A DNA stretch of 64,000 nucleotides from Candidatus Babelota bacterium (GTDB lineage: Bacteria > Babelota > Babeliae > Babelales > GCA-2401785). The notes under the pieces were generated by a model. That model was not told where the DNA came from and did not search any database. It saw only the letters and a program-made list of their open reading frames with translations. Location of the stretch: the NCBI GenBank assembly GCA_016871815.1, contig VHBT01000004.1, forward strand, positions 5,454-69,453, read 5' to 3'. Below are positions 4,090 through 53,144 of this stretch, one piece after another (position 1 is the stretch's first letter; each line of letters starts with the position of its first letter). The translations under genes and the position numbers were made by a program.

Positions 4090-4947
4090 CTACAAACGAA
4101 CTTCTACTAATTGATTTCTTCCAATGCGCTTTGTCATGACAACCTGGTCGGCAGATTCAAAAAAAGGCTCAAATTCTAGCGCTTTAAAGTGTGATTTAAC
4201 TGATTGTCGATGCTGATTCCCACCAACAACAACTGAAACTTTTTCACCATCCTCTGCAGACAAGTCCTGATTCATAAATTTTCGCTTATTAGCTTTTGCT
4301 TGAGCAATTTTTTCTTCTGGCAACAGCCTAACTTTTGGAATTTGAATAAATTGATGATCAAGTTTAAACGGCCAATACTCAATACTTTCGACTCTTTTTG
4401 GATTCAAAAGCAAAATAATAGTACGCGAAGGCTCGTATAAAAAATTTCTTTTTTCAATAGATTTTGGCTTTATTAAAATATCATCATTCGAAAGATTTGC
4501 GGCATTTTGAGCCTTGCATGAAAAACAAAGATATGGTTCTCCTGGAATTTGCTTAAACCCAACAATATTATTGGCTCCCTCAAGAACCGGTTCGATATTT
4601 TTAGTAATTAACAAATGATACGTATCATCCTTCATTTTTGTTTTCAACAATGGACTCACGCTTTCAAGCGCAGCGCCTCCATTAATTGATTTCATCATTT
4701 TTTGACGAAACGGAACAACATCAAAAGCTTCCGCATCACTTTTTTTTATAAATGAAAAAAAGCCACTTGAATCGCTCACCGTACGCTCTCCACGAAAGAA
4801 AACGACCACTGGATCAACATCCGAAGAGTCTGACGAAGAAATCCCACCTCGCACAATCCGCTCCTCAGACGAAACAGATCTGTGTTCGGGATATCCGAAT
4901 GCGATCCCACACAACAATATTAAAAAAAGGATTAACGTTTTTTTCAT
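4090..4947 (-). CDS. Hypothetical secreted protein
   Basis: 285-aa ORF with a signal-peptide-like N-terminus (MKKTLILFLILLCGIAFG). No family recognised. Confidence 0.55.
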   Translation of the reverse strand: MKKTLILFLILLCGIAFGYPEHRSVSSEERIVRGGISSSDSSDVDPVVVFFRGERTVSDSSGFFSFIKKSDAEAFDVVPFRQKMMKSINGGAALESVSPLLKTKMKDDTYHLLITKNIEPVLEGANNIVGFKQIPGEPYLCFSCKAQNAANLSNDDILIKPKSIEKRNFLYEPSRTIILLLNPKRVESIEYWPFKLDHQFIQIPKVRLLPEEKIAQAKANKRKFMNQDLSAEDGEKVSVVVGGNQHRQSVKSHFKALEFEPFFESADQVVMTKRIGRNQLVEVRL

Positions 4948-8678: not shown

Positions 8679-8768
8679 GGAGAGGTGGCTGAGTGGCCGA
8701 AAGCGCCCGTCTCGAAAGCGGGTATCTCTTTACCGGGATCGTGAGTTCGAATCTCACCCTCTCCGCCA
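8679..8768 (+). tRNA. tRNA-Ser (anticodon CGA)
   Basis: Acceptor GGAGAGG/CCTCTCC, anticodon stem CCCGT/GCGGG with loop CTCGAAA, long variable arm, T-loop GTTCGAATC, encoded CCA. Confidence 0.9.
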
Positions 8769-9058: not shown

Positions 9059-9250
9059 TGGTAATGCCTTTCACAATATGGTTAAATCCCCAAAAAGAGT
9101 ACTGTATGCAAACGCGTCTTCGTCAAGATTGACGTAAATCCATCAGAACCAAGGCCAATTCAAAAAATCTTTCAATGTGAAACATCTCGATGCCAAAAAA
9201 TATTAATTTTTAATGATTTTCCTAGATTAATAAGTCTTTTTTGCGTGTCA

Positions 9251-9295
9251 CCATAAATTCCAGTACCATAAATTCCAGTACCATAAATTCCAGTA
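9251..9295. repeat. 15-bp perfect tandem repeat x3 (CCATAAATTCCAGTA) immediately upstream of a start codon
   Basis: Three exact copies at 9251-9265, 9266-9280 and 9281-9295, then a degenerate fourth unit CCATCAAAAGTGATA ending 2 nt before the ATG at 9313. Confidence 0.9.
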
Positions 9296-9312
9296 CCATC
9301 AAAAGTGATAGT

Positions 9313-10677
9313 ATGTTTAAAAAACTTGTTTTCAACGTAGCAGCAGTTTTCTCGCTCGCGCCCGTGAGCTCTGCTCCGGCTGACTTTTTCTCAATCGAAG
9401 AAAATCCAACACAGCCAGGGCTTATAAAAATAGGGGCTATTTATTGGACCCAAATGCCCCAAAATAGACTATGGCGACGTCTTTTGTGGCAACAACTCCC
9501 ATCTGAGGCAGCAAAAACAGTCGCAATGTTTGCAAACCGAAAAACAGCAAAAGCGATCTATTCATTTCCTGCACAAGCCGTTTTGGCTGTTCTTGCAAGC
9601 ATTTCAAGGCGAGCAGCCGAAGATGGCATTTCTTCACAAGTTGCGTTCAAAAGCCTTCATGATGCTTTTTACTCTCTTCAATTCAAATTTGATGGCAACT
9701 CTGCATGGCTTAACTACTTCAATGTAGTTAAATACTTGGCACTCGCGTCTCAAATAAAACAACTCTTGTTTGACATCGAAAATGAATGCGCAGACCTTGA
9801 AATCAAAAGCAACATTACCCAAGGATATATTCCACAAAATAACAATTTTTTCGTTCTCCCAACTCAAACATATTTAATTGCGCACGCTGCAAGAAACCTG
9901 CAGACTATGGAATCTTCACCTACCGCAAGTATTCCACTCGTCGACAAAGCAACTTTTTGTGCAAAATGGTACACCGCGCTCAACCACCATATCATTCCAC
10001 ATAAAACAATCTTAAGGCTTTCTCCTGAGCTTCAAGAACGCTGCTATGACCTTTCACACCATATCGCCGCATTAAATATTGGGTTTGATATCTTACCAAT
10101 AAGCATTTCTAACGCTAGGGCTAAAACTATCAACAACCGCGGATGTTACATTAAGAGATTTCCCCAAGATTTTAAAACTTTTGGCGGAACAGAAGAGCTA
10201 AAAAAACAATTCAAAATTGCTGATTTCATGCATCAAACAGCTGGAACCGATAACGCCAAAAACCTAATTTTGATGCTTGTCCATACAAACTTACAAGAAT
10301 TTTTTGAACCAACAGCCATAGAGCTTGCAGAACAAGATTCTCAAGAAGCAGGGGGCCAAGGAGCTGATACAATTCAACGACGAAAAAATAATTTACAACA
10401 AATAAAAAGCTTAAAAGCTGAATTCTTCAAGATAGCCTCAGGCATGAATGGTTTTATTGAAGAATTAAAACCGAATCAAACACTTAGCACAGATGATGAA
10501 ATAGAAACTATGTTAAAAGAAAGAATAACTATTATTTCGAGGTGCATTTTAGCATGGAATCAAGATAGAACCACTGATCTGGATGAGATTAAAAGGAATA
10601 TTTTAACAGCTCCTGCTAGCGATGGTGATACTAGCGATGGTGATACTAGCGATGGTGATACTAGCGATGACGATTAA
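9313..10677 (+). CDS. Hypothetical secreted protein with C-terminal (SDGDT)n repeat
   Basis: Start chosen at the ATG giving the signal peptide MFKKLVFNVAAVFSLAPVSSAPA. The longer ORF from 9241 only translates the upstream tandem repeat. Paralogous to the 28505-29376 fragments. Confidence 0.65.
   Translation: MFKKLVFNVAAVFSLAPVSSAPADFFSIEENPTQPGLIKIGAIYWTQMPQNRLWRRLLWQQLPSEAAKTVAMFANRKTAKAIYSFPAQAVLAVLASISRRAAEDGISSQVAFKSLHDAFYSLQFKFDGNSAWLNYFNVVKYLALASQIKQLLFDIENECADLEIKSNITQGYIPQNNNFFVLPTQTYLIAHAARNLQTMESSPTASIPLVDKATFCAKWYTALNHHIIPHKTILRLSPELQERCYDLSHHIAALNIGFDILPISISNARAKTINNRGCYIKRFPQDFKTFGGTEELKKQFKIADFMHQTAGTDNAKNLILMLVHTNLQEFFEPTAIELAEQDSQEAGGQGADTIQRRKNNLQQIKSLKAEFFKIASGMNGFIEELKPNQTLSTDDEIETMLKERITIISRCILAWNQDRTTDLDEIKRNILTAPASDGDTSDGDTSDGDTSDDD
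10618..10674 (+). repeat. 15-bp in-frame tandem repeat (AGCGATGGTGATACT x3 plus a partial unit) encoding SDGDT repeats
   Basis: Three exact copies read directly at the 3' end of the CDS. Confidence 0.9.
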
Positions 10678-11855: not shown

Positions 11856-13538
11856 CTAAATCTCTTCTGCTGGAGCAATAATCGTACGCGAAGGCATCGC
11901 ATACCATTCAGAAAGCTTTGAAAGTTCTGGCATATGAGTTGCAGTAAATGTAAGCGTTCTAGGGTTGCAAGCTACGGCATGTACCGTATCAAGCGCAAAA
12001 CGAGTGCCTTTTTTTGCATTTGTTGCCTGCCCCAAAGAATCATCAAACAAAAAGAGTCCACTTTGATGTTGTTCAAGATTTGAAACATTTTGTACCAAGA
12101 ATTCTGCTCGAGCACGTTTTGCAATGTAGCTAGAAAAACCCTTACTCAAATCTTCAGCAACATTCATAAATGAATAAATTTGACTAAAAAGAGCCAGGCT
12201 AAAAATCTGCGCGGCGGCTATCCCAAAGACCTGGGCTAACAAAACATTTACGCCTATAGTTCGTAAAATCGTAGACTTTCCAGCGCCATTATCACCAAAC
12301 AACAACATACCTTTGTCTTCTTTTTGATTATCATACGAAAAGGTTCGAACTCTTTCTGGAGCTACGGTTTGTAATAAAACGGGCAACCAAGATTCTTGTG
12401 TAAGCAAAAGAGGTTTTTCAGCATCCACAAAATCAACAAAACAATAGCACAATCGGTCATTTGCTCGCTGACGCATGGTTTCTGCTACCGATAAATAAAC
12501 GTCAATCTGGCCTACTAGATCAAACAATTGTTGTAATTGCTCTTGAAGAACTAGCATTGATTTAAAATCAACCGCAACACTCGCCAACGGTGAAAAAATA
12601 TTCTTGTTTTTGTAAGACCCAATTTTTGTTTTTGATTGAACTTGTGTCAATAAATCTTCATATGAGTGAACCAAAACGGAGAAATCGGATGCACCATTCG
12701 CATGAACAACACGTAATTCATGCAACAAAGTATCCGCTCGAGAAATAAAATTATTAAACAAGCCCATCGCATCATTAACCTTCTTGGCTAACGACAATTT
12801 AAATGTCGCGGATGCATACGCATCTTTAAGTCCAATAATGTGCAGTAGTGTATGAATTCCCTTTCCATACAATACAACCCATCGAACAAACCCCTTAAAC
12901 ATTCGATGAGACAATGAACACCCACAAGAAGCATGCCCATGTCCGTGTCCATGTCCATGTCCATGTCCGTGTCCGTGTCCGTGTCCGTGTCCATGTCCGT
13001 GCCGATGGGTATGTTCATTCTTGGCAAGGTATAAATGCGCAATTTTAAGAATAACCAACTCAACAATCACAACTGCAAGAGGACTAAATGTCTCTGTATA
13101 ATACTTAAGATTTAAGGCCGCCTTGGAATCATTTAACCTACTTAAAAAAGAAGATTTAAATTCAAACATCCTGACAACTTGCTTAAGATTATCAAGCGAC
13201 GCCTGCTCAAAGGCTGTTGCGAGTTCATTTTGCACGCCAGCAAGACGTACAAGTGCCTCTTTAAGACTATTAAATGCTTTTCCATCAAGATTAAACAACG
13301 TTTTTACCATACCCTGACGAGTCTGCAAGATGCTGATATCATCAAGTGGATTATTCATAAAGTCTTTAAACTTTTGCTCGCCAGCAGCTGTTTGCTGAGC
13401 TACAAAGCTCTTTTGCAGGGAATAACCCGGCAAATCCCCAACACACAAATCATTCGCCGTAAATGAATCCAATTTCCCCCAAATAATTGTTGGGAAAAAA
13501 GCCAATACCAGCACTATTTTTTTTAACAAAAAAGACAT
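11856..13538 (-). CDS. MutS-family (domain V) ATPase-like protein with N-terminal hydrophobic leader and internal (HG)11 tract
   Basis: C-terminal half carries MutS ABC-ATPase motifs: Walker A GDNGAGKST, LFLFDDSLGQATN (Walker B position), FTATHMPEL. No mismatch-binding or Smr region seen. N-terminus is MSFLLKKIVLVLAFFPTIIWG. Confidence 0.7.
   Translation of the reverse strand: MSFLLKKIVLVLAFFPTIIWGKLDSFTANDLCVGDLPGYSLQKSFVAQQTAAGEQKFKDFMNNPLDDISILQTRQGMVKTLFNLDGKAFNSLKEALVRLAGVQNELATAFEQASLDNLKQVVRMFEFKSSFLSRLNDSKAALNLKYYTETFSPLAVVIVELVILKIAHLYLAKNEHTHRHGHGHGHGHGHGHGHGHGHGHGHASCGCSLSHRMFKGFVRWVVLYGKGIHTLLHIIGLKDAYASATFKLSLAKKVNDAMGLFNNFISRADTLLHELRVVHANGASDFSVLVHSYEDLLTQVQSKTKIGSYKNKNIFSPLASVAVDFKSMLVLQEQLQQLFDLVGQIDVYLSVAETMRQRANDRLCYCFVDFVDAEKPLLLTQESWLPVLLQTVAPERVRTFSYDNQKEDKGMLLFGDNGAGKSTILRTIGVNVLLAQVFGIAAAQIFSLALFSQIYSFMNVAEDLSKGFSSYIAKRARAEFLVQNVSNLEQHQSGLFLFDDSLGQATNAKKGTRFALDTVHAVACNPRTLTFTATHMPELSKLSEWYAMPSRTIIAPAEEI
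12933..12998. repeat. Imperfect hexanucleotide microsatellite (RTGTCC x11 on + strand) encoding (His-Gly)11
   Basis: Eleven consecutive ATGTCC/GTGTCC/ATGCCC units read directly. On the coding strand they are CAY GGA codons. Confidence 0.9.
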
Positions 13539-29376: not shown

Positions 29377-32300
29377 TCCTCTACGTGAGCATCGGCAGTT
29401 GGGTCAAAATTAAATTTAAAAAACGCTTCGGCATCGTCGGGCTTGTTTTGATTTTGATACAAAATCATTTTAGGGAATGGGAACACAACTCCCTTTTCCC
29501 TGAATAATTTATACAATGCCACACGAATATCACTCGCAACATCCCATTGCTCACGAACCTTACGAATACTGACAAAGCCCCTGACAAAATAATCTGCTGC
29601 CGATGGCGCAAAATTATCCAAGCGAATAACCGCAGGCGGCACACGCAAAACCAGTGCATGTGCATTTAAAACTTTACGAATCAGAGTCATAACAAGGTCA
29701 GGATCGTTCTCGTACCCAACAGTCACGGTAAATTCAAAGCCAACAGAAATTTTGCCTCCACCCCAATTAAATAATGAATGCGAAATTAAATGACGATTGG
29801 GGATAACAACAAAATAATTTTGTGCTGTTCTAATAATCGTTGAGCGTGCAGAAATTTTATGTACCAGCCCTCGCGTATTTTCGATACTTATGTAATGCCC
29901 AATTTCAATTTGACGCTCCAACAAAATCAACAAGCCTGCAACAAAATCTGCAACAAAATCTCTTGATGCCAAAGCAGCACCAACACAAATCGAAATCAAA
30001 ACAGGAAGCACCATCGCCGCTAACTTGACGTATGAAAGGCCAAGCATGAAAGAAAGCAATAAAAAAATGATTCTAAATATCCGCGAAAACGTATTTTGTG
30101 CCCCTGGCTCTGCACCAAAAACCTCATAGACCTTACTCAGGATAAAACGATCTAAAAGAGTCATGACCAAATATCCACATACAACAAAAAGATATACAGT
30201 CAGAATCTCTATAATTCCAATTTTTATTCCATCGTGAGAAAAAACCCACTCATCACAAACTGCTGTCCATAGGCGCGCAAAATTGTACTGCAATCCCCAA
30301 ATCTGAGACAAAACCGCAACCATAAAAAAGCAGAGCGCAAAAAAACTAACCGTAACAAAAAAGCCGTAGTAGACTTTTGCATTTTCAAACCGAGAAACAA
30401 GCTCATCGTCTCGCTGCTCAATAAATACCCACACAACCCGCTCTCGCAAAACCCCATACAAAAATAAGGCGCAAAATACAACCCCTACAGAAACAGGAAC
30501 GAAAAACGCCAAATACCAAGCAAGCTGAGAGTATCCAACATACGGATTTGCAAGCAAACAGAGAAGTACGAAAAAGAAAAAGAGCGGATAAAAATAACGA
30601 TCAACAGACTCCCGCGCACGCAACCAAAAATCACTTCGCCCAAAAAATAATCCAGTAAAATCATCTTTTTCAAAAAATAATGCTAAGGCAACAATCACAA
30701 GCAATGAATAAATCGCGAATAAAACATTTGGAAGAAATTCATACTTTGAACTAAACATTAACAACGCACTGCGCAAGGGGAGAGTAATTGCCGTTGAGTA
30801 AAATAAAACATCAAGCAATAATGTTGTTCTCTTTTGATTGCGTTCTCCGAAAAAGAAGTAACTTAAGCGCGCATTAAGCAATCGTAATTCGGAAAGAAAA
30901 TCATTTGCTAAATAAACCCACACCGGCGCAGAGCATAAAAAGAACCCACTAAATCCAACAGGGCCTGCAAAGAAACTCAAAAGCCCCCAGTACGTAAGCT
31001 TAAATTTAAAATGGATATATAAAAAAAGAAGCATATACACAGCTTGAATTTGCCGCAGAGCTGCATCAAAGAAAAGAAGTAATACGTTTAAATACCAAAA
31101 AATAAACGTTCCATTTTGATATGAAACAAAAAGCTGAAGACGCCTGCGAAGAAATTGTAAAACATGTCCTGCGATAATAAAGCCCGACCAGTACACAATA
31201 AAGGAAAGAAATAAGCCCACAAGCAATGCCCATGAGATCAATCTCAAGAATGAAAAGAAATCAAAAAAGTCATAAATTTTCCAAAAAACCATTTTTGAAA
31301 AATGCTGCAACTCTTCAGTTGCCCGCAGCATCATCACCATTGAAATGCCACGAGAAGATCGACGCCAAATATTTACATTTACACGACGAGCCTCTAGGTC
31401 ATTGATAGTTCCAATACATTGACGCAAAACTCGTTGATAAATTTTTAATAACTCACTCGCCCGAGAACTAATTTTTAAGGCATTAGCACTTTGATGCCGA
31501 ACTGACTCTCTTGCATCATTCAGACTCGCGATAATTTCTTTGCCCTTATCGCCAAGATCTGTTTTTGAAACCTCTATTAAGCGTTTCTTTAAACGATCCT
31601 GCTCTTCTTGCATGTGATGCGAAGCGAGTGCATCATTTTTACGCGCTTCATATGTTTTTATATCATACTCAAGCTTCCTGCGAATGGTGTTAATTTCTTC
31701 AATCAAGCTTCGAGAGATTTCACCCTCTGTTAACAATAAATACCTGATATTAACCTTGGTATAACTAAATCCTTTTTCCATAGCAAGTGCATGAGCAAGA
31801 TCATCATCGGCGGACAATAAAGAAATCTGTCCCGTAAGCGCTTTAATAATGTTTTTATCAAGCGATTCTTTGGCCTGATAAAGCAATCCTTCTGGAGTAT
31901 TTTCTTTTCCGGCAGCCCTTAAGGTTGCTAAGTTTGTTTTAACCTGCTCATAGCGTTCTCGTATGCGCTCTTTTTCAAATGTTTTTTCATTTAAAATTGC
32001 TCGAATTCTATCACGCTCAACACCAAGAAAAGCTTCCTGTTCTTCTTTTTTTGCTTTTAATCGATTGAGGTCAAAACTCTCTATAATTAAATTGTTCTTG
32101 ATCTTTGCAACAAGCGCCAAAAGCTTTTGATTTCGAGCGCGCAAAAGAGCTATTCCATCATCTACAGCAGAAAGATCTAAATCTATTTTTTTTATTTTTA
32201 CTTCAGTCAGAGAAATCTTATCAGCTAAAAGGTCCCGCTCTTTTTGTAACACAGATCGCTTATTTGACTCTTCCTGCTCTTCATAAGAACTAATTTCACC

Positions 32301-33059
32301 GCGACGAATAGGCTGTTCCAATTCTCGCTTTTTTGTCGCAAACTCTTTTTTTAAAAAATCTAATTGATCAAAAAGCGACGTCCGCTCAGGAAGAACAATG
32401 TTTCTTGAGTCCATTTCTTTTTTTATTTGATCATCAACTTCTTCAATTTCCATTTCAACAAAAGTCCAATCTTCTATCGAATAAGGAATTTTTTTCGACA
32501 GATCCTCTCCTTTGCGCACAACCACATCTGATTGCGCTTGAAACGTTTCTATGTTTTCTTCCACAACACCTAGAATTGTTGCCCAAACACGCAAAATCCC
32601 ATTTATAACTTGTTCTTGCTCATCATTCAAAGCCAAAATTTTTTTTTGAGTGTCTTCTCCCAACCGAGCAATTTCTTCGCTCACTTCACCTCGTCGTAAT
32701 TTTGAAGCAAAACCAATAATTGAAAGCCGCCGTAAATCAAACATTTTTAATGCTTTTAATTTTTCTTCGCGCAATTTTTTCAATTTTTGCTCTAATGCTT
32801 CAATTTTTTGAACTCGCAAAACAGTTTCATCACGATTAAAAACTTGCTCAACCGCACGAGTACTTTCTGCTAAAGTCTTAAGACCAAAAAGATTTCCTGT
32901 CATTGACTCCAACCATGACCCGGAATGGTTTTTACTTAAATCATCTCGATCAAAACTTCCCTGCGAAAATAAGAGGTCTTGCGTAAAGATAATAAGCAAA
33001 AGCAAAATAAATTTGCCCGCCCTAAAACTATTAAGATTCCTCACTTCACCGATCCCCAT
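29373..33059 (-). CDS. Large mechanosensitive ion channel, MscK/KefA-like (MscS family)
   Basis: 1228 aa: N-terminal signal, a long coiled-coil periplasmic-type region, about 10 or more TM segments, and a C-terminal MscS-like domain (GLVHKISARSTIIRTAQNYFVVIPNRHLISHSLFNW). Confidence 0.75.
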   Translation of the reverse strand: MGIGEVRNLNSFRAGKFILLLLIIFTQDLLFSQGSFDRDDLSKNHSGSWLESMTGNLFGLKTLAESTRAVEQVFNRDETVLRVQKIEALEQKLKKLREEKLKALKMFDLRRLSIIGFASKLRRGEVSEEIARLGEDTQKKILALNDEQEQVINGILRVWATILGVVEENIETFQAQSDVVVRKGEDLSKKIPYSIEDWTFVEMEIEEVDDQIKKEMDSRNIVLPERTSLFDQLDFLKKEFATKKRELEQPIRRGEISSYEEQEESNKRSVLQKERDLLADKISLTEVKIKKIDLDLSAVDDGIALLRARNQKLLALVAKIKNNLIIESFDLNRLKAKKEEQEAFLGVERDRIRAILNEKTFEKERIRERYEQVKTNLATLRAAGKENTPEGLLYQAKESLDKNIIKALTGQISLLSADDDLAHALAMEKGFSYTKVNIRYLLLTEGEISRSLIEEINTIRRKLEYDIKTYEARKNDALASHHMQEEQDRLKKRLIEVSKTDLGDKGKEIIASLNDARESVRHQSANALKISSRASELLKIYQRVLRQCIGTINDLEARRVNVNIWRRSSRGISMVMMLRATEELQHFSKMVFWKIYDFFDFFSFLRLISWALLVGLFLSFIVYWSGFIIAGHVLQFLRRRLQLFVSYQNGTFIFWYLNVLLLFFDAALRQIQAVYMLLFLYIHFKFKLTYWGLLSFFAGPVGFSGFFLCSAPVWVYLANDFLSELRLLNARLSYFFFGERNQKRTTLLLDVLFYSTAITLPLRSALLMFSSKYEFLPNVLFAIYSLLVIVALALFFEKDDFTGLFFGRSDFWLRARESVDRYFYPLFFFFVLLCLLANPYVGYSQLAWYLAFFVPVSVGVVFCALFLYGVLRERVVWVFIEQRDDELVSRFENAKVYYGFFVTVSFFALCFFMVAVLSQIWGLQYNFARLWTAVCDEWVFSHDGIKIGIIEILTVYLFVVCGYLVMTLLDRFILSKVYEVFGAEPGAQNTFSRIFRIIFLLLSFMLGLSYVKLAAMVLPVLISICVGAALASRDFVADFVAGLLILLERQIEIGHYISIENTRGLVHKISARSTIIRTAQNYFVVIPNRHLISHSLFNWGGGKISVGFEFTVTVGYENDPDLVMTLIRKVLNAHALVLRVPPAVIRLDNFAPSAADYFVRGFVSIRKVREQWDVASDIRVALYKLFREKGVVFPFPKMILYQNQNKPDDAEAFFKFNFDPTADAHVED

Positions 33060-53074: not shown

Positions 53075-53144
53075 TGCAAAAGCCCGATTGACAGACAGCC
53101 CACTTACAGGTACGATTTGATTTGGTTACCCCTTTGGGGAAAAA

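What the first reader, a model, noticed from the sequence alone, without database searches (positions are those of the whole stretch)
9241..9315. Conserved 15-bp tandem repeats abutting the start codon of a two-member gene family
Upstream of 9313-10677, the unit CCATAAATTCCAGTA occurs three times exactly (9251-9295). A degenerate unit follows, then the ATG two bases later. Upstream of the paralog at 28505, a related unit (CCATCAATTTTAGTA) occurs twice (28458-28488). It is followed by the same degenerate unit and the same ATGTTTAAAAAA start context.

Repeats occupy the normal position of the ribosome-binding site and 5' UTR, with a different copy number in the two loci. That suggests either an iterated regulator or RNA-binding-protein site, or a copy-number-variable (phase-variation-like) expression switch. 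The same gene also ends in a 15-bp coding repeat (SDGDT x3, 10618-10674).
Basis: seen in the sequence. Interest (0 to 1): 0.55.

Follow-up and report, generated by a model that had tools for sequence, protein, structure and literature searches.

The report
Short tandem repeat before a secreted-protein gene
A real 15-base tandem repeat lies in the non-coding stretch just upstream of the ribosome-binding site of an orphan signal-peptide gene, and of its broken paralog, in an uncultured Dependentiae (TM6) bacterium; it looks like an ordinary slippage-generated minisatellite, with no sign so far that it acts as a switch.

Summary
Three exact CCATAAATTCCAGTA units lie at 9251-9295, followed by a degenerate unit and the ATG at 9313. 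A homologous two-unit array lies upstream of the paralog's ATG at 28505.

The units are non-coding. The ATG opens a signal peptide and is the annotated start. A GGTGAT-type Shine-Dalgarno sits inside the degenerate unit. The P0002 gene and the P0004 gene (the closest relatives of A and B, from other organisms) have in-frame stops just upstream of their ATGs. At the paralog the array frame is out of phase with the ATG.

The block from the repeats to codon 8 is 81% identical between the paralogs, while the coding bodies are 49% identical with saturated third positions. The gene duplication appears to predate the split from the lineage(s) carrying P0002 and P0004, and those genes lack the array. 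Lineage-specific homogenisation of the 5' ends, with separate unit expansion at each locus, explains this best.

Four other assemblies from three samples are 100% identical and carry the same copy numbers, so no variation was seen, but this is one clone. No RNA structure, Rfam family or further copies were found. Whether a unit junction (TACCAT, 17 bp after a conserved TTG) is the -10 box remains untested.

Verdict: a leader or promoter minisatellite, a new member of a known kind, of modest interest.

The parts
9251..9295 (+). Three exact 15-bp units CCATAAATTCCAGTA (locus A array)
9296..9310 (+). Degenerate fourth unit CCATCAAAAGTGATA. It carries the Shine-Dalgarno-like AGTGAT (9304-9309), 3 nt before the ATG.
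   Evidence: GGTGAT-type SD 2-3 nt before ATG at other genes (NUDIX 27832; gene 4090-4947 minus strand).
9241..9246 (+). TTGCGT. The TTG is conserved 10 nt before the first unit at both loci. It is a candidate -35 (inferred). It is also the mechanical TTG start of the 478-aa ORF, which I reject as the real start.
9264..9269 (+). TACCAT at the junction of units 1 and 2, 17 bp downstream of TTGCGT. Candidate -10 box (inferred, untested). It recurs at 9279-9284 and 9294-9299.
   Evidence: Sequence. tRNA promoters in the window use TAGGAT, TACGAT and TACTCT as -10 boxes.
9313..10677 (+). Gene A: a 454-aa orphan protein with an N-terminal signal-peptide-like sequence (MFKKLVFNVAAVFSLAPVSSAPA). Annotated as FJ366_01450 in a Candidatus Dependentiae bacterium.
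   Evidence: No Pfam or NCBIfam match. Helical AF2 model with no PDB fold match.
10616..10669 (+). In-frame 15-bp coding repeat (SDGDT, 3.6 copies, 100% matches) at the C-terminus of gene A
9170..9183 (.). Inverted repeat TTTCA-ATG-TGAAAC inside a second upstream block shared with locus B
28459..28488 (+). Locus B array: CTATCAATTTTAGTA and CCATCAATTTTAGTA
28489..28503 (+). Locus B degenerate unit CCATTAAAGGTAATA with SD-like AGGTAAT (28496-28502)
28449..28454 (+). TTGTTA, 10 nt before the first B unit and 17 bp before TACCAT (28472-28477). It was the only hit in my relaxed sigma-70 scan of the B upstream region (8 of 12).
28505..28636 (+). Paralog B, fragment 1 (43 aa, signal peptide). The frame is lost at the A6 run 28589-28594.
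28681..29376 (+). Paralog B, fragment 2 (231 aa, other frame). 33% (BLASTP) to 38% (my alignment) identical to A and 41% identical to the intact 299-aa relative P0004.
28379..28393 (.). Perfect inverted repeat GTTTCA-CTC-TGAAAC, the counterpart of 9170-9183

Best explanation
The array is a non-coding 15-bp minisatellite in the promoter-proximal leader of a fast-evolving gene for a protein with a signal peptide, in a Dependentiae (TM6) genome.

**Shown.**
- The real start is the ATG at 9313.
- The last, degenerate unit supplies a GGTGAT-type Shine-Dalgarno.
- The exact units lie at -18 to -62.
- The homologous array at the paralog has one unit fewer.
- The units are alike within each locus (all identical in A, one mismatch in B). 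Between loci every A unit differs from the exact B unit at the same three positions.
- The block from the repeats to codon 8 is far more similar between the paralogs than the rest of the genes.
- The closest relatives elsewhere lack the array.

**Inferred.**
- An ancestral 'unit + degenerate unit' was already an imperfect tandem duplication flanked by AGTACCAT 8-mers.
- Replication slippage or unequal exchange between these 8-mers then added units independently at each locus.
- The 5' ends of the two paralogs (leader plus signal-peptide codons) have been homogenised in this lineage by gene conversion. This is why the arrays are recognisably the same.
- The most likely functional placement is that the unit junction TACCAT, 17 bp after the conserved TTG, acts as the -10 box. 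Extra units would then lengthen the leader by 15 nt each (about 36 nt in A, about 20 nt in B) without changing the -35/-10 spacing.
- On this view copy number is at most a quantitative tuner of expression, and may be neutral. It is not an on/off switch.
For: **Existence.**

**Non-coding.**
- The annotated product starts at the ATG.
- The signal peptide starts at MFKK.
- Other genes in the window have an SD of the same type and spacing.
- In-frame TAA stops lie 5 codons upstream of the P0002 ATG and 2 codons upstream of the P0004 ATG.
- At B the array frame is out of phase with the ATG.

**Conservation.**
- Units plus degenerate unit: 35 of 45 identical. First 24 nt of the CDS: 21 of 24 identical, with all 8 third positions identical.
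- CDS body: 49% nucleotide identity, third positions 36%.
- 30 nt upstream of the arrays: 14 of 30.

**Homogenisation.**
- A is 40% identical to P0002 and B is 41% identical to P0004. A and B are 33-38% identical, and P0002 and P0004 are 33% identical.
- Yet the first 54 nt of the CDS are 65% identical for A-B and 81% for P0002-P0004, against 52% for A-P0002 and 57% for B-P0004.

**Lineage specificity.** No array lies upstream of P0002, P0009 or P0006.

**Promoter idea.**
- TTG-17-TACCAT is present at both loci.
- tRNA promoters in the window are TTGACA-17-TAGGAT, TTGACA-17-TACGAT and TTGACG-16-TACTCT.

**No switching seen.** Copy numbers are identical in L024, L025, L026 and L027.
Against: - There is no transcript data, so the promoter placement is conjecture. 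TTGCGT/TACCAT scores only 7 of 12 and TTGTTA/TACCAT 8 of 12, both below the tool's threshold. Such matches are expected by chance in AT-rich DNA.
- The high similarity of the block could instead reflect purifying selection on a regulatory site.
- The motif CCATAAA also lies 3-9 nt before the ATG of P0004 from another organism. This hints at a conserved leader element. It also does not fit a -10 role there.
- P0002 and P0004 come from different samples, so 'within-lineage homogenisation' in that lineage is not proven.
- All comparison assemblies are the same clone, so stability across strains is untested.
Confidence: 0.55

Rival explanations
1. The units are iterated recognition sites for a DNA-binding regulator or an RNA-binding translational regulator or sRNA. 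This factor would control the gene family, with the number of sites set per paralog.
For: - The repeat-to-codon-8 block is 81% identical between paralogs, while synonymous sites elsewhere are saturated.
- All 8 third codon positions of the first 8 codons are identical, which points to nucleotide-level conservation.
- CCATAAA recurs 3-9 nt before the ATG of P0004 from another organism.
- Two of the three substitutions in the degenerate unit keep a 4-bp AUCA/UGAU versus AUUA/UAAU pairing over the SD (my reading).
Against: - The unit occurs nowhere else in 64 kb beyond chance.
- It is absent upstream of P0002, P0006 and P0009.
- A 15-bp period is 1.4 helical turns, so the sites would not lie on one face of the DNA.
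- No RNA structure exceeds that of shuffles (z = -0.1 to -0.7), and there is no Rfam match.
- B keeps the block although it is a pseudogene.
- Homogenisation between the paralogs explains the conservation.
Confidence: 0.15
2. The array is a contingency (phase- or level-variable) locus. Slipped-strand gain and loss of 15-bp units would switch or grade expression of a host-interaction protein within populations, as at H. influenzae hmw1A/hmw2A.
For: - Copy number differs between the paralogs, and units are perfectly identical within A, which implies recent expansion.
- The same gene carries a perfect 15-bp coding repeat.
- The paralog is inactivated at an A6 run.
- The known precedent also has two paralogous loci with promoter repeats in different numbers (PMC2424069).
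Against: - The array has only 2-3 copies of a long unit, whereas hmw has 9-28 copies of 7 bp.
- Consensus copy number is identical in assemblies from three samples.
- Steps of 15 bp change neither the reading frame nor, under the proposed promoter, the -35/-10 spacing.
Confidence: 0.1
3. The repeats are coding. Translation would start at TTG 9241 and give an N-terminal (TINSS)x3 extension ahead of the signal peptide.
For: - The frame is open from TTG 9241 through the array into the ATG frame.
- A TTG lies at the same distance from the array at B.
- The variable base after CCAT (A, C or T) is the wobble position of an Ile codon in that frame.
Against: - No SD precedes the TTG, while a good one precedes the ATG.
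- At B the array frame is out of phase with the ATG frame.
- The P0002 and P0004 genes have in-frame stops 5 and 2 codons before their ATGs.
- The annotated protein starts at the ATG.
- A 24-residue polar extension before a signal peptide is atypical.
- An open frame of 24 codons, only about 14 of them independent, is expected by chance about one time in three.
Confidence: 0.05
4. The conserved block serves the minus strand. A promoter-like site inside the first codons would drive a small antisense RNA or a roughly 25-aa peptide across the repeats. The peptides would be (MVLEF)x3MVTRKKDLLI at A and (MVLKL)x2IGFNKKYFYVDKRP at B.
For: - Minus-strand promoter-like hits lie at equivalent places at both loci: TTGAAA-16-TACTAT (9335 to 9308) and CTGAAA-16-TATATT (28527 to 28500).
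- Both minus-strand frames are open.
Against: - Matches at 9 of 12 occur about twice per 900 nt in shuffles.
- The two hits are shared simply because the sequence is shared.
- The peptides are short and differ at 2 of 5 residues per unit and in their tails.
- At B such a transcript would run into the 3' end of the NUDIX gene.
Confidence: 0.03

Closest known systems
7-bp tandem repeats in the hmw1A/hmw2A promoters of nontypeable Haemophilus influenzae (PMC2424069)
   Same: Two paralogous loci for exported proteins each carry a tandem repeat between the promoter region and the start codon, with a different copy number at each locus. In that system, more repeats generally give less transcript.
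   Different: The hmw units are 7 bp and number 9-28, and they vary among isolates and during infection. Here the units are 15 bp and number 2-3, and no variation has been seen. The effect on expression is unknown.
Variable lipoprotein (vlp) family of Mycoplasma hyorhinis (from my own knowledge, not checked here)
   Same: A gene family with a highly similar 5' non-coding region and signal peptide, a divergent body, in-frame C-terminal tandem repeats and a hypermutable tract in the promoter region.
   Different: The vlp switch is a poly(A) tract between -35 and -10 that changes promoter spacing, and the proteins are lipoproteins in a cluster. Here the unit is 15 bp, the two genes are 19 kb apart, no lipobox was examined and no switching was observed.
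TTTTGAT heptad repeats upstream of ctxAB in Vibrio cholerae (from my own knowledge, not checked here)
   Same: Tandem direct repeats upstream of a secreted-protein operon whose number differs between lineages and which are bound by regulators.
   Different: Those repeats lie upstream of the -35 and have known binding proteins. Here the units reach down to the SD and no binding protein is known.
Intergenic VNTR/minisatellite loci (for example mycobacterial MIRU-VNTR; from my own knowledge)
   Same: Short arrays of tens-of-bp units in intergenic DNA, generated by slippage or unequal exchange and usually stable over short time scales.
   Different: MIRUs are dispersed families of 40-100-bp units. 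This unit is confined to two paralogous leaders.

Membership tests
Simple-sequence contingency locus (phase variation by repeat slippage) | Tandem repeat located in the promoter, leader or 5' coding region of the affected gene | tested here: met
   The arrays at 9251-9310 and 28459-28503 abut the start codons.
Simple-sequence contingency locus (phase variation by repeat slippage) | Repeat number polymorphic within populations or among closely related strains | tested here: inconclusive
   There are 3 units at A in L027 and 2 units at B in L024, L025 and L026, all as in the window. All are 100% identical clones, and raw reads were not available.
Simple-sequence contingency locus (phase variation by repeat slippage) | Tract long enough to be hypermutable (many copies of a 1-8-bp unit) | tested here: not met
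   2-3 copies of a 15-bp unit, against 9-28 copies of 7 bp at hmw.
Simple-sequence contingency locus (phase variation by repeat slippage) | A change in repeat number changes expression | not testable with these tools
   Needs reporter fusions or transcript quantification.
Iterated operator or direct-repeat transcription-factor site | The same motif is present at several promoters of a regulon | tested here: not met
   Only the two paralogous leaders carry it in 64 kb, and other matches are at chance level. It is absent upstream of P0002, P0006 and P0009. A genome-contig scan gave only unrelated sequences, mostly one recurring stretch in Bacteroidetes that I read as FKBP-type isomerase coding sequence.
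Iterated operator or direct-repeat transcription-factor site | Repeat period close to an integral number of helical turns | tested here: not met
   The period is 15 bp, about 1.4 turns.
Shine-Dalgarno ribosome-binding site (degenerate unit only) | A purine-rich match to the anti-SD complement at the spacing used by other genes of the genome | tested here: met
   AGTGAT lies 3 nt and AGGTAAT 2 nt before the ATGs. Other genes show ttGGTGATat-ATG (NUDIX) and gagGGTGATtga-ATG (4090-4947, minus strand). The genome's 16S rRNA was not available.
Sigma-70-type promoter (TTGNNN-17-TACCAT) | -35 and -10 hexamers with a 16-18-bp spacer and a transcription start about 7 nt downstream | tested here: inconclusive
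   Scores are 7 of 12 (A) and 8 of 12 (B), below the scan threshold. The geometry is conserved at both loci and the -10 resembles the tRNA promoters' TACGAT and TAGGAT. There are no transcription-start data.
Structured cis-regulatory RNA (riboswitch, leader or thermometer) | Stable or conserved secondary structure, or a match to a curated family | tested here: not met
   Fold z-scores range from +0.1 to -0.7. Only tRNAs reached Rfam gathering scores in the window.

The most novel reading that the evidence does not exclude
The 15-nt units are iterated binding sites for a lineage-specific regulator, either a protein or a small RNA acting on the leader or start region. This regulator would govern a fast-evolving family of signal-peptide proteins in an obligate intracellular Dependentiae. 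Unit number and 5'-end homogenisation would be selected to keep the paralogs co-regulated, making this a previously undescribed regulatory module in a phylum with no genetics.
Probability: 0.1. Interest if true: 0.5.

Novelty: new member of a known kind. Interest (0 to 1): 0.27.

Why it matters
If the array tunes expression, it would be one of the first cis-regulatory features described for Dependentiae (TM6). This is an uncultured phylum of intracellular bacteria for which promoters, leaders and regulation are essentially unknown. It would also mark this orphan signal-peptide family as a candidate host-interaction locus. Two features are typical of variable surface or effector families and are cheap to test with existing metagenomic reads. 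One is the 5' ends of paralogs staying alike while the bodies diverge to saturation. The other is the set of three slippage-prone tracts in one small family: the leader repeat, the C-terminal repeat and the A-run frameshift. If, as I think more likely, the array is a near-neutral minisatellite, it is an ordinary feature and mainly useful as a strain-typing marker.

Tried and rejected
1. **Coding extension from TTG 9241.** Rejected, with a residual probability of about 0.05. The reasons are the SD position, the in-frame stops upstream of the ATGs of P0002 and P0004, the out-of-phase frame at B and the annotated start.
2. **Structured leader RNA.** Four folds gave z-scores near 0, and Rfam found only tRNAs.
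3. **Dispersed motif or regulon.** Window searches with 3 mismatches were at chance level. The palindrome TTTCA-N3-TGAAAC was likewise at chance outside the two loci.
4. **Pattern scan of 185,579 species genomes.** It returned 17 hits, all unrelated. Most are one recurring stretch, mainly in Bacteroidetes, that I read as FKBP-type isomerase coding sequence. Three are repeat-rich stretches from Muribaculaceae and Cryptobacteroides. The window's own genome is not in that collection. The viral scan returned nothing.
5. **Finding relatives with upstream DNA.**
   - The word-indexed protein search was unproductive three times.
   - The full HMMER search gave 8 relatives.
   - The metagenome scan recovered only the P0002 locus.
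   - The first attempt with nine sequences failed for lack of a conserved stretch.
6. **Copy number in other assemblies.** Five contigs were retrieved, four of them spanning a 5' array, and all are clonal. The Logan contig ends inside the C-terminal repeat. A de Bruijn assembly would be expected to break at a perfect 54-bp array, so this is not evidence of heterogeneity. Look-ups of P0001 and the GlmU-like protein found nothing.
7. **Function of the protein.** No Pfam or NCBIfam match. The AF2 model has pLDDT 66.8 and is mostly helical. The best Foldseek PDB E-value is 0.31.
8. **Integrase att or tRNA-linked island idea.** Both loci lie 0.5-0.7 kb downstream of tRNA genes. No match of the unit to the tRNAs and no integrase were seen. 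I did not pursue this further.
9. **Sigma-54, sigma-32, IHF, PmrA-type and CsrA motifs.** I compared these by eye from memory and none fits.
Full report
**1. The observation**

Locus A has three exact copies of CCATAAATTCCAGTA at 9251-9295. A degenerate copy CCATCAAAAGTGATA follows at 9296-9310, then GT, then the ATG at 9313. Tandem Repeats Finder reports 9250-9299, period 15, 3.3 copies, 100% matches.

Locus B has CTATCAATTTTAGTA (28459-28473) and CCATCAATTTTAGTA (28474-28488). A degenerate copy CCATTAAAGGTAATA follows at 28489-28503, then T, then the ATG at 28505. Both genes begin ATGTTTAAAAAA.

- The start coordinate of the B array is one base off.
- The first B unit has one mismatch.
- The degenerate units match at 12 of 15 positions rather than being identical.

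Single units with up to three mismatches occur elsewhere in the window only at chance frequency. The exact arrays are therefore the non-random feature.

**2. Organism and genes**

- The product of 9313-10677 is identical to hypothetical protein FJ366_01450 of a Candidatus Dependentiae (TM6) metagenome-assembled genome. It is annotated from the ATG as 454 aa.
- It has no Pfam or NCBIfam match.
- Its AlphaFold2 model is mostly helical, with mean pLDDT 66.8.
- The model has no PDB fold match. The best Foldseek E-value is 0.31.
- It begins with a signal-peptide-like MFKKLVFNVAAVFSLAPVSSAPA.
- A full HMMER scan of 1.84 billion representatives found only eight relatives. They share the motifs DIENEC and KLSPELQxRCYD.

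The paralog at 28505 is real. It is 33% identical at the amino-acid level by BLASTP, with E = 2e-27, and 38% in my own alignment. It is broken into a 43-aa signal-peptide ORF and a 231-aa ORF in another frame. The frame change maps to the A6 run at 28589-28594, and an A7 run would restore one ORF. That restored ORF would be comparable to the intact 299-aa relative P0004, which is 41% identical to B. The broken form is present in three other assemblies.

**3. Coding or not**

Mechanically, an ORF opens at TTG 9241 and reads (TINSS)x3 into the ATG frame. I reject this as the real start for four reasons:
- The degenerate unit carries AGTGAT (A) or AGGTAAT (B), 2-3 nt before the ATG. This matches the GGTGAT-type Shine-Dalgarno and spacing seen at other genes here, such as ttGGTGATat-ATG and gagGGTGATtga-ATG. 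Nothing SD-like precedes the TTG.
- At B the array frame is out of phase with the ATG.
- The P0002 and P0004 genes have in-frame TAA stops 5 and 2 codons before their ATGs.
- The family N-terminus M[FL]KK plus a hydrophobic stretch is a signal peptide.

The exact units are therefore non-coding and lie at -18 to -62. Only the degenerate unit occupies the ribosome-binding position.

**4. Conservation pattern**

| Region compared between A and B | Identity |
|---|---|
| Units plus degenerate unit | 35 of 45 |
| First 24 nt of the CDS | 21 of 24, all eight third positions identical |
| 30 nt upstream of the arrays, anchored on the shared TTG | 14 of 30 |
| First 34 codons | 58% |
| Gene body | 49%, third positions 36% (about saturation) |

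A block of about 70 nt straddling the start codon is thus far better conserved than neutral sites.

Further upstream there is a second shared block around the inverted repeat TTTCA-N3-TGAAAC, at 9170-9183 and 28379-28393.

**5. Why the block is conserved**

Protein identities pair A with P0002 (40%) and B with P0004 (41%). A-B is 33-38% and P0002-P0004 is 33%. On these margins the duplication appears to be older than the split from the lineage(s) that carry P0002 and P0004.

The first 54 nt of the CDS tell a different story:

| Pair | Identity over the first 54 nt |
|---|---|
| A - B (paralogs, this genome) | 65% (88% over the first 24 nt) |
| P0002 - P0004 (paralogs, other lineage) | 81% |
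| A - P0002 (closest relatives across lineages) | 52% |
| B - P0004 (closest relatives across lineages) | 57% |

This is the signature of concerted evolution of the 5' ends within each lineage. The caveat is that P0002 and P0004 come from different samples.

None of the relatives with upstream DNA has a tandem repeat before the start codon. I checked P0002 (three contigs), P0009 and P0006. The P0004 contig keeps only 18 nt upstream. Notably, these contain CCATAAA 3-9 nt before the ATG.

**6. History of the arrays**

The units are alike within each locus. They are all identical in A and differ by one mismatch in B. Between loci, every A unit differs from the exact B unit at the same three positions.

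A unit and its degenerate neighbour match at 10 of 15 positions, and both begin with CCAT after AGTA. An ancestral 'unit + degenerate unit' therefore already offered AGTACCAT 8-mers 15 bp apart. Slippage or unequal exchange between these would add or remove whole units. Independent expansion at each locus, or within-array homogenisation, accounts for the pattern. The perfect identity of units in A implies that its expansion is recent.

**7. Variation**

I retrieved contigs from other assemblies by looking up neighbouring proteins.
- L027 (JGI 3300020179) spans locus A and has three units.
- L024 (JGI 3300021376), L025 (Logan SRR7990546) and L026 (JGI 3300020179) span locus B and have two units.
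- All are 100% identical to the window over up to 8.5 kb, apart from one A5-to-A4 indel near 30937.

They represent one clone. The result therefore shows that the consensus is stable across samples, not that the array is invariant across strains.

A Logan contig ends inside the C-terminal repeat. A k-mer assembly would be expected to break at a perfect 54-bp array, so I draw no conclusion from it.

**8. How it might work**

There is no RNA structure above shuffled controls (z = +0.1 to -0.7). Rfam found only tRNAs.

At the DNA level, a TTG lies exactly 10 nt before the first unit at both loci. The first unit junction reads TACCAT exactly 17 bp after the TTGNNN hexamer:
- A: 9241-9246 and 9264-9269.
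- B: 28449-28454 and 28472-28477.

The three clear promoters in the window are all upstream of tRNA genes. They are TTGACA-17-TAGGAT, TTGACA-17-TACGAT and TTGACG-16-TACTCT. A TAC-N-AT box is therefore plausible in this organism.

If this is the promoter, extra units lengthen the leader by 15 nt each, to about 36 nt at A and about 20 nt at B, and leave the promoter spacing unchanged. That would make the array a tuner at most. The match is weak (7-8 of 12, below the scan threshold) and there are no transcript data. I hold this sub-claim at roughly 0.3.

**9. Rivals**

- **Iterated regulator site (0.15).** The block conservation and the CCATAAA near the P0004 start support it. Two substitutions that preserve a 4-bp pairing over the SD also support it. 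Against it are the restriction to two paralogous leaders, absence upstream of the other relatives checked, a period that is not a whole number of helical turns, and retention at a pseudogene.
- **Contingency switch (0.10).** It resembles the hmw1A/hmw2A promoters of H. influenzae. There, two paralogs carry 9-28 copies of a 7-bp repeat, and more repeats generally give less transcript (PMC2424069). Here there are only 2-3 long units and no observed variation.
- **Coding extension (0.05).** Discussed in section 3.
- **Minus-strand product (0.03).** Promoter-like hits lie at equivalent places at both loci, and there are open 24-25-codon frames. These are at chance level and follow simply from the shared sequence.

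**10. Verdict**

The feature is real and non-coding. It is best read as a lineage-specific leader or promoter minisatellite shared by two paralogs whose 5' ends are being homogenised.

It is a new member of a known kind. Interest is modest, at 0.27. The main value is as a cheap, testable entry point into regulation and gene-family dynamics in Dependentiae. The decisive data are read pile-ups and transcript starts from existing samples, neither of which was accessible with these tools.

Noticed in passing
window 28589-28594 (within 28505-29376): Paralog B is split by a frameshift at an A6 run. An A7 run would fuse the 43-aa and 231-aa ORFs into one protein comparable to the intact 299-aa relative P0004. 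The broken form is identical in three other assemblies. It could be a recent pseudogene or a homopolymer 'off' state.
   Followed up: partly
window 10616-10669: A perfect in-frame 15-bp repeat (3.6 copies) encodes SDGDT repeats at the C-terminus of gene A. It has the same period as the leader repeat. A Logan contig (L028) ends inside it.
   Followed up: partly
window 9313-9366 and 28505-28558; L018 3049-3102; L021 19-72: The 5' ends (signal-peptide codons) are more alike between paralogs within a lineage than between the closest relatives across lineages. Over the first 54 nt, A-B is 65% and P0002-P0004 is 81%, against 52% and 57% across lineages. This suggests concerted evolution of the family's 5' ends.
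   Followed up: partly
window 9170-9183 and 28379-28393: An inverted repeat TTTCA-N3-TGAAAC (perfect GTTTCA-CTC-TGAAAC at B) sits in a second conserved upstream block about 120-140 nt before both ATGs. A half-site-like ATGAAAC also lies upstream of P0002 (L018, about 2919-2925). It may be an operator.
   Followed up: partly
window 27529-27557, 53088-53116, 51775-51748 (minus strand): The three near-consensus promoters in the window all lie upstream of tRNA genes and use -10 boxes with G or C in the middle (TAGGAT, TACGAT, TACTCT). A TTGGTT-16-TAGGAT site also lies upstream of the distant family member P0009 (L029, about 1436-1463). This may be a Dependentiae -10 preference.
   Followed up: no
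window about 30937 (gene 29373-33059, minus strand): Assembly L024 (JGI 3300021376) differs from the window by one base, A5 to A4. This splits the 1228-aa MscS-like channel gene into 516-aa and 716-aa ORFs there. It is either population-level homopolymer variation or an assembly error.
   Followed up: partly
window 12932-13001 (gene 11856-13538, minus strand): A 6-bp coding repeat encodes a run of about eleven His-Gly dipeptides, (HG)n, inside a MutS-domain protein. This is an unusual insertion.
   Followed up: no
window 22984-23096: A 36-bp tandem repeat (3.1 copies, 79% matches) lies inside the ORF at 22656-23249 on the minus strand. It is another repeat-bearing gene.
   Followed up: no
window 9335-9308 and 28527-28500 (minus strand): Sigma-70-like matches (9 of 12) lie at equivalent positions inside the first codons of both paralogs and point back across the repeats. 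Open 24-25-codon minus-strand frames lie over the arrays. Probably chance.
   Followed up: partly
window 8679-8768 and 27588-27795: Both paralogs lie 0.5-0.7 kb downstream of tRNA genes (tRNA-Ser-CGA; tRNA-Lys and tRNA-Glu). No integrase or att-like match was seen.
   Followed up: no
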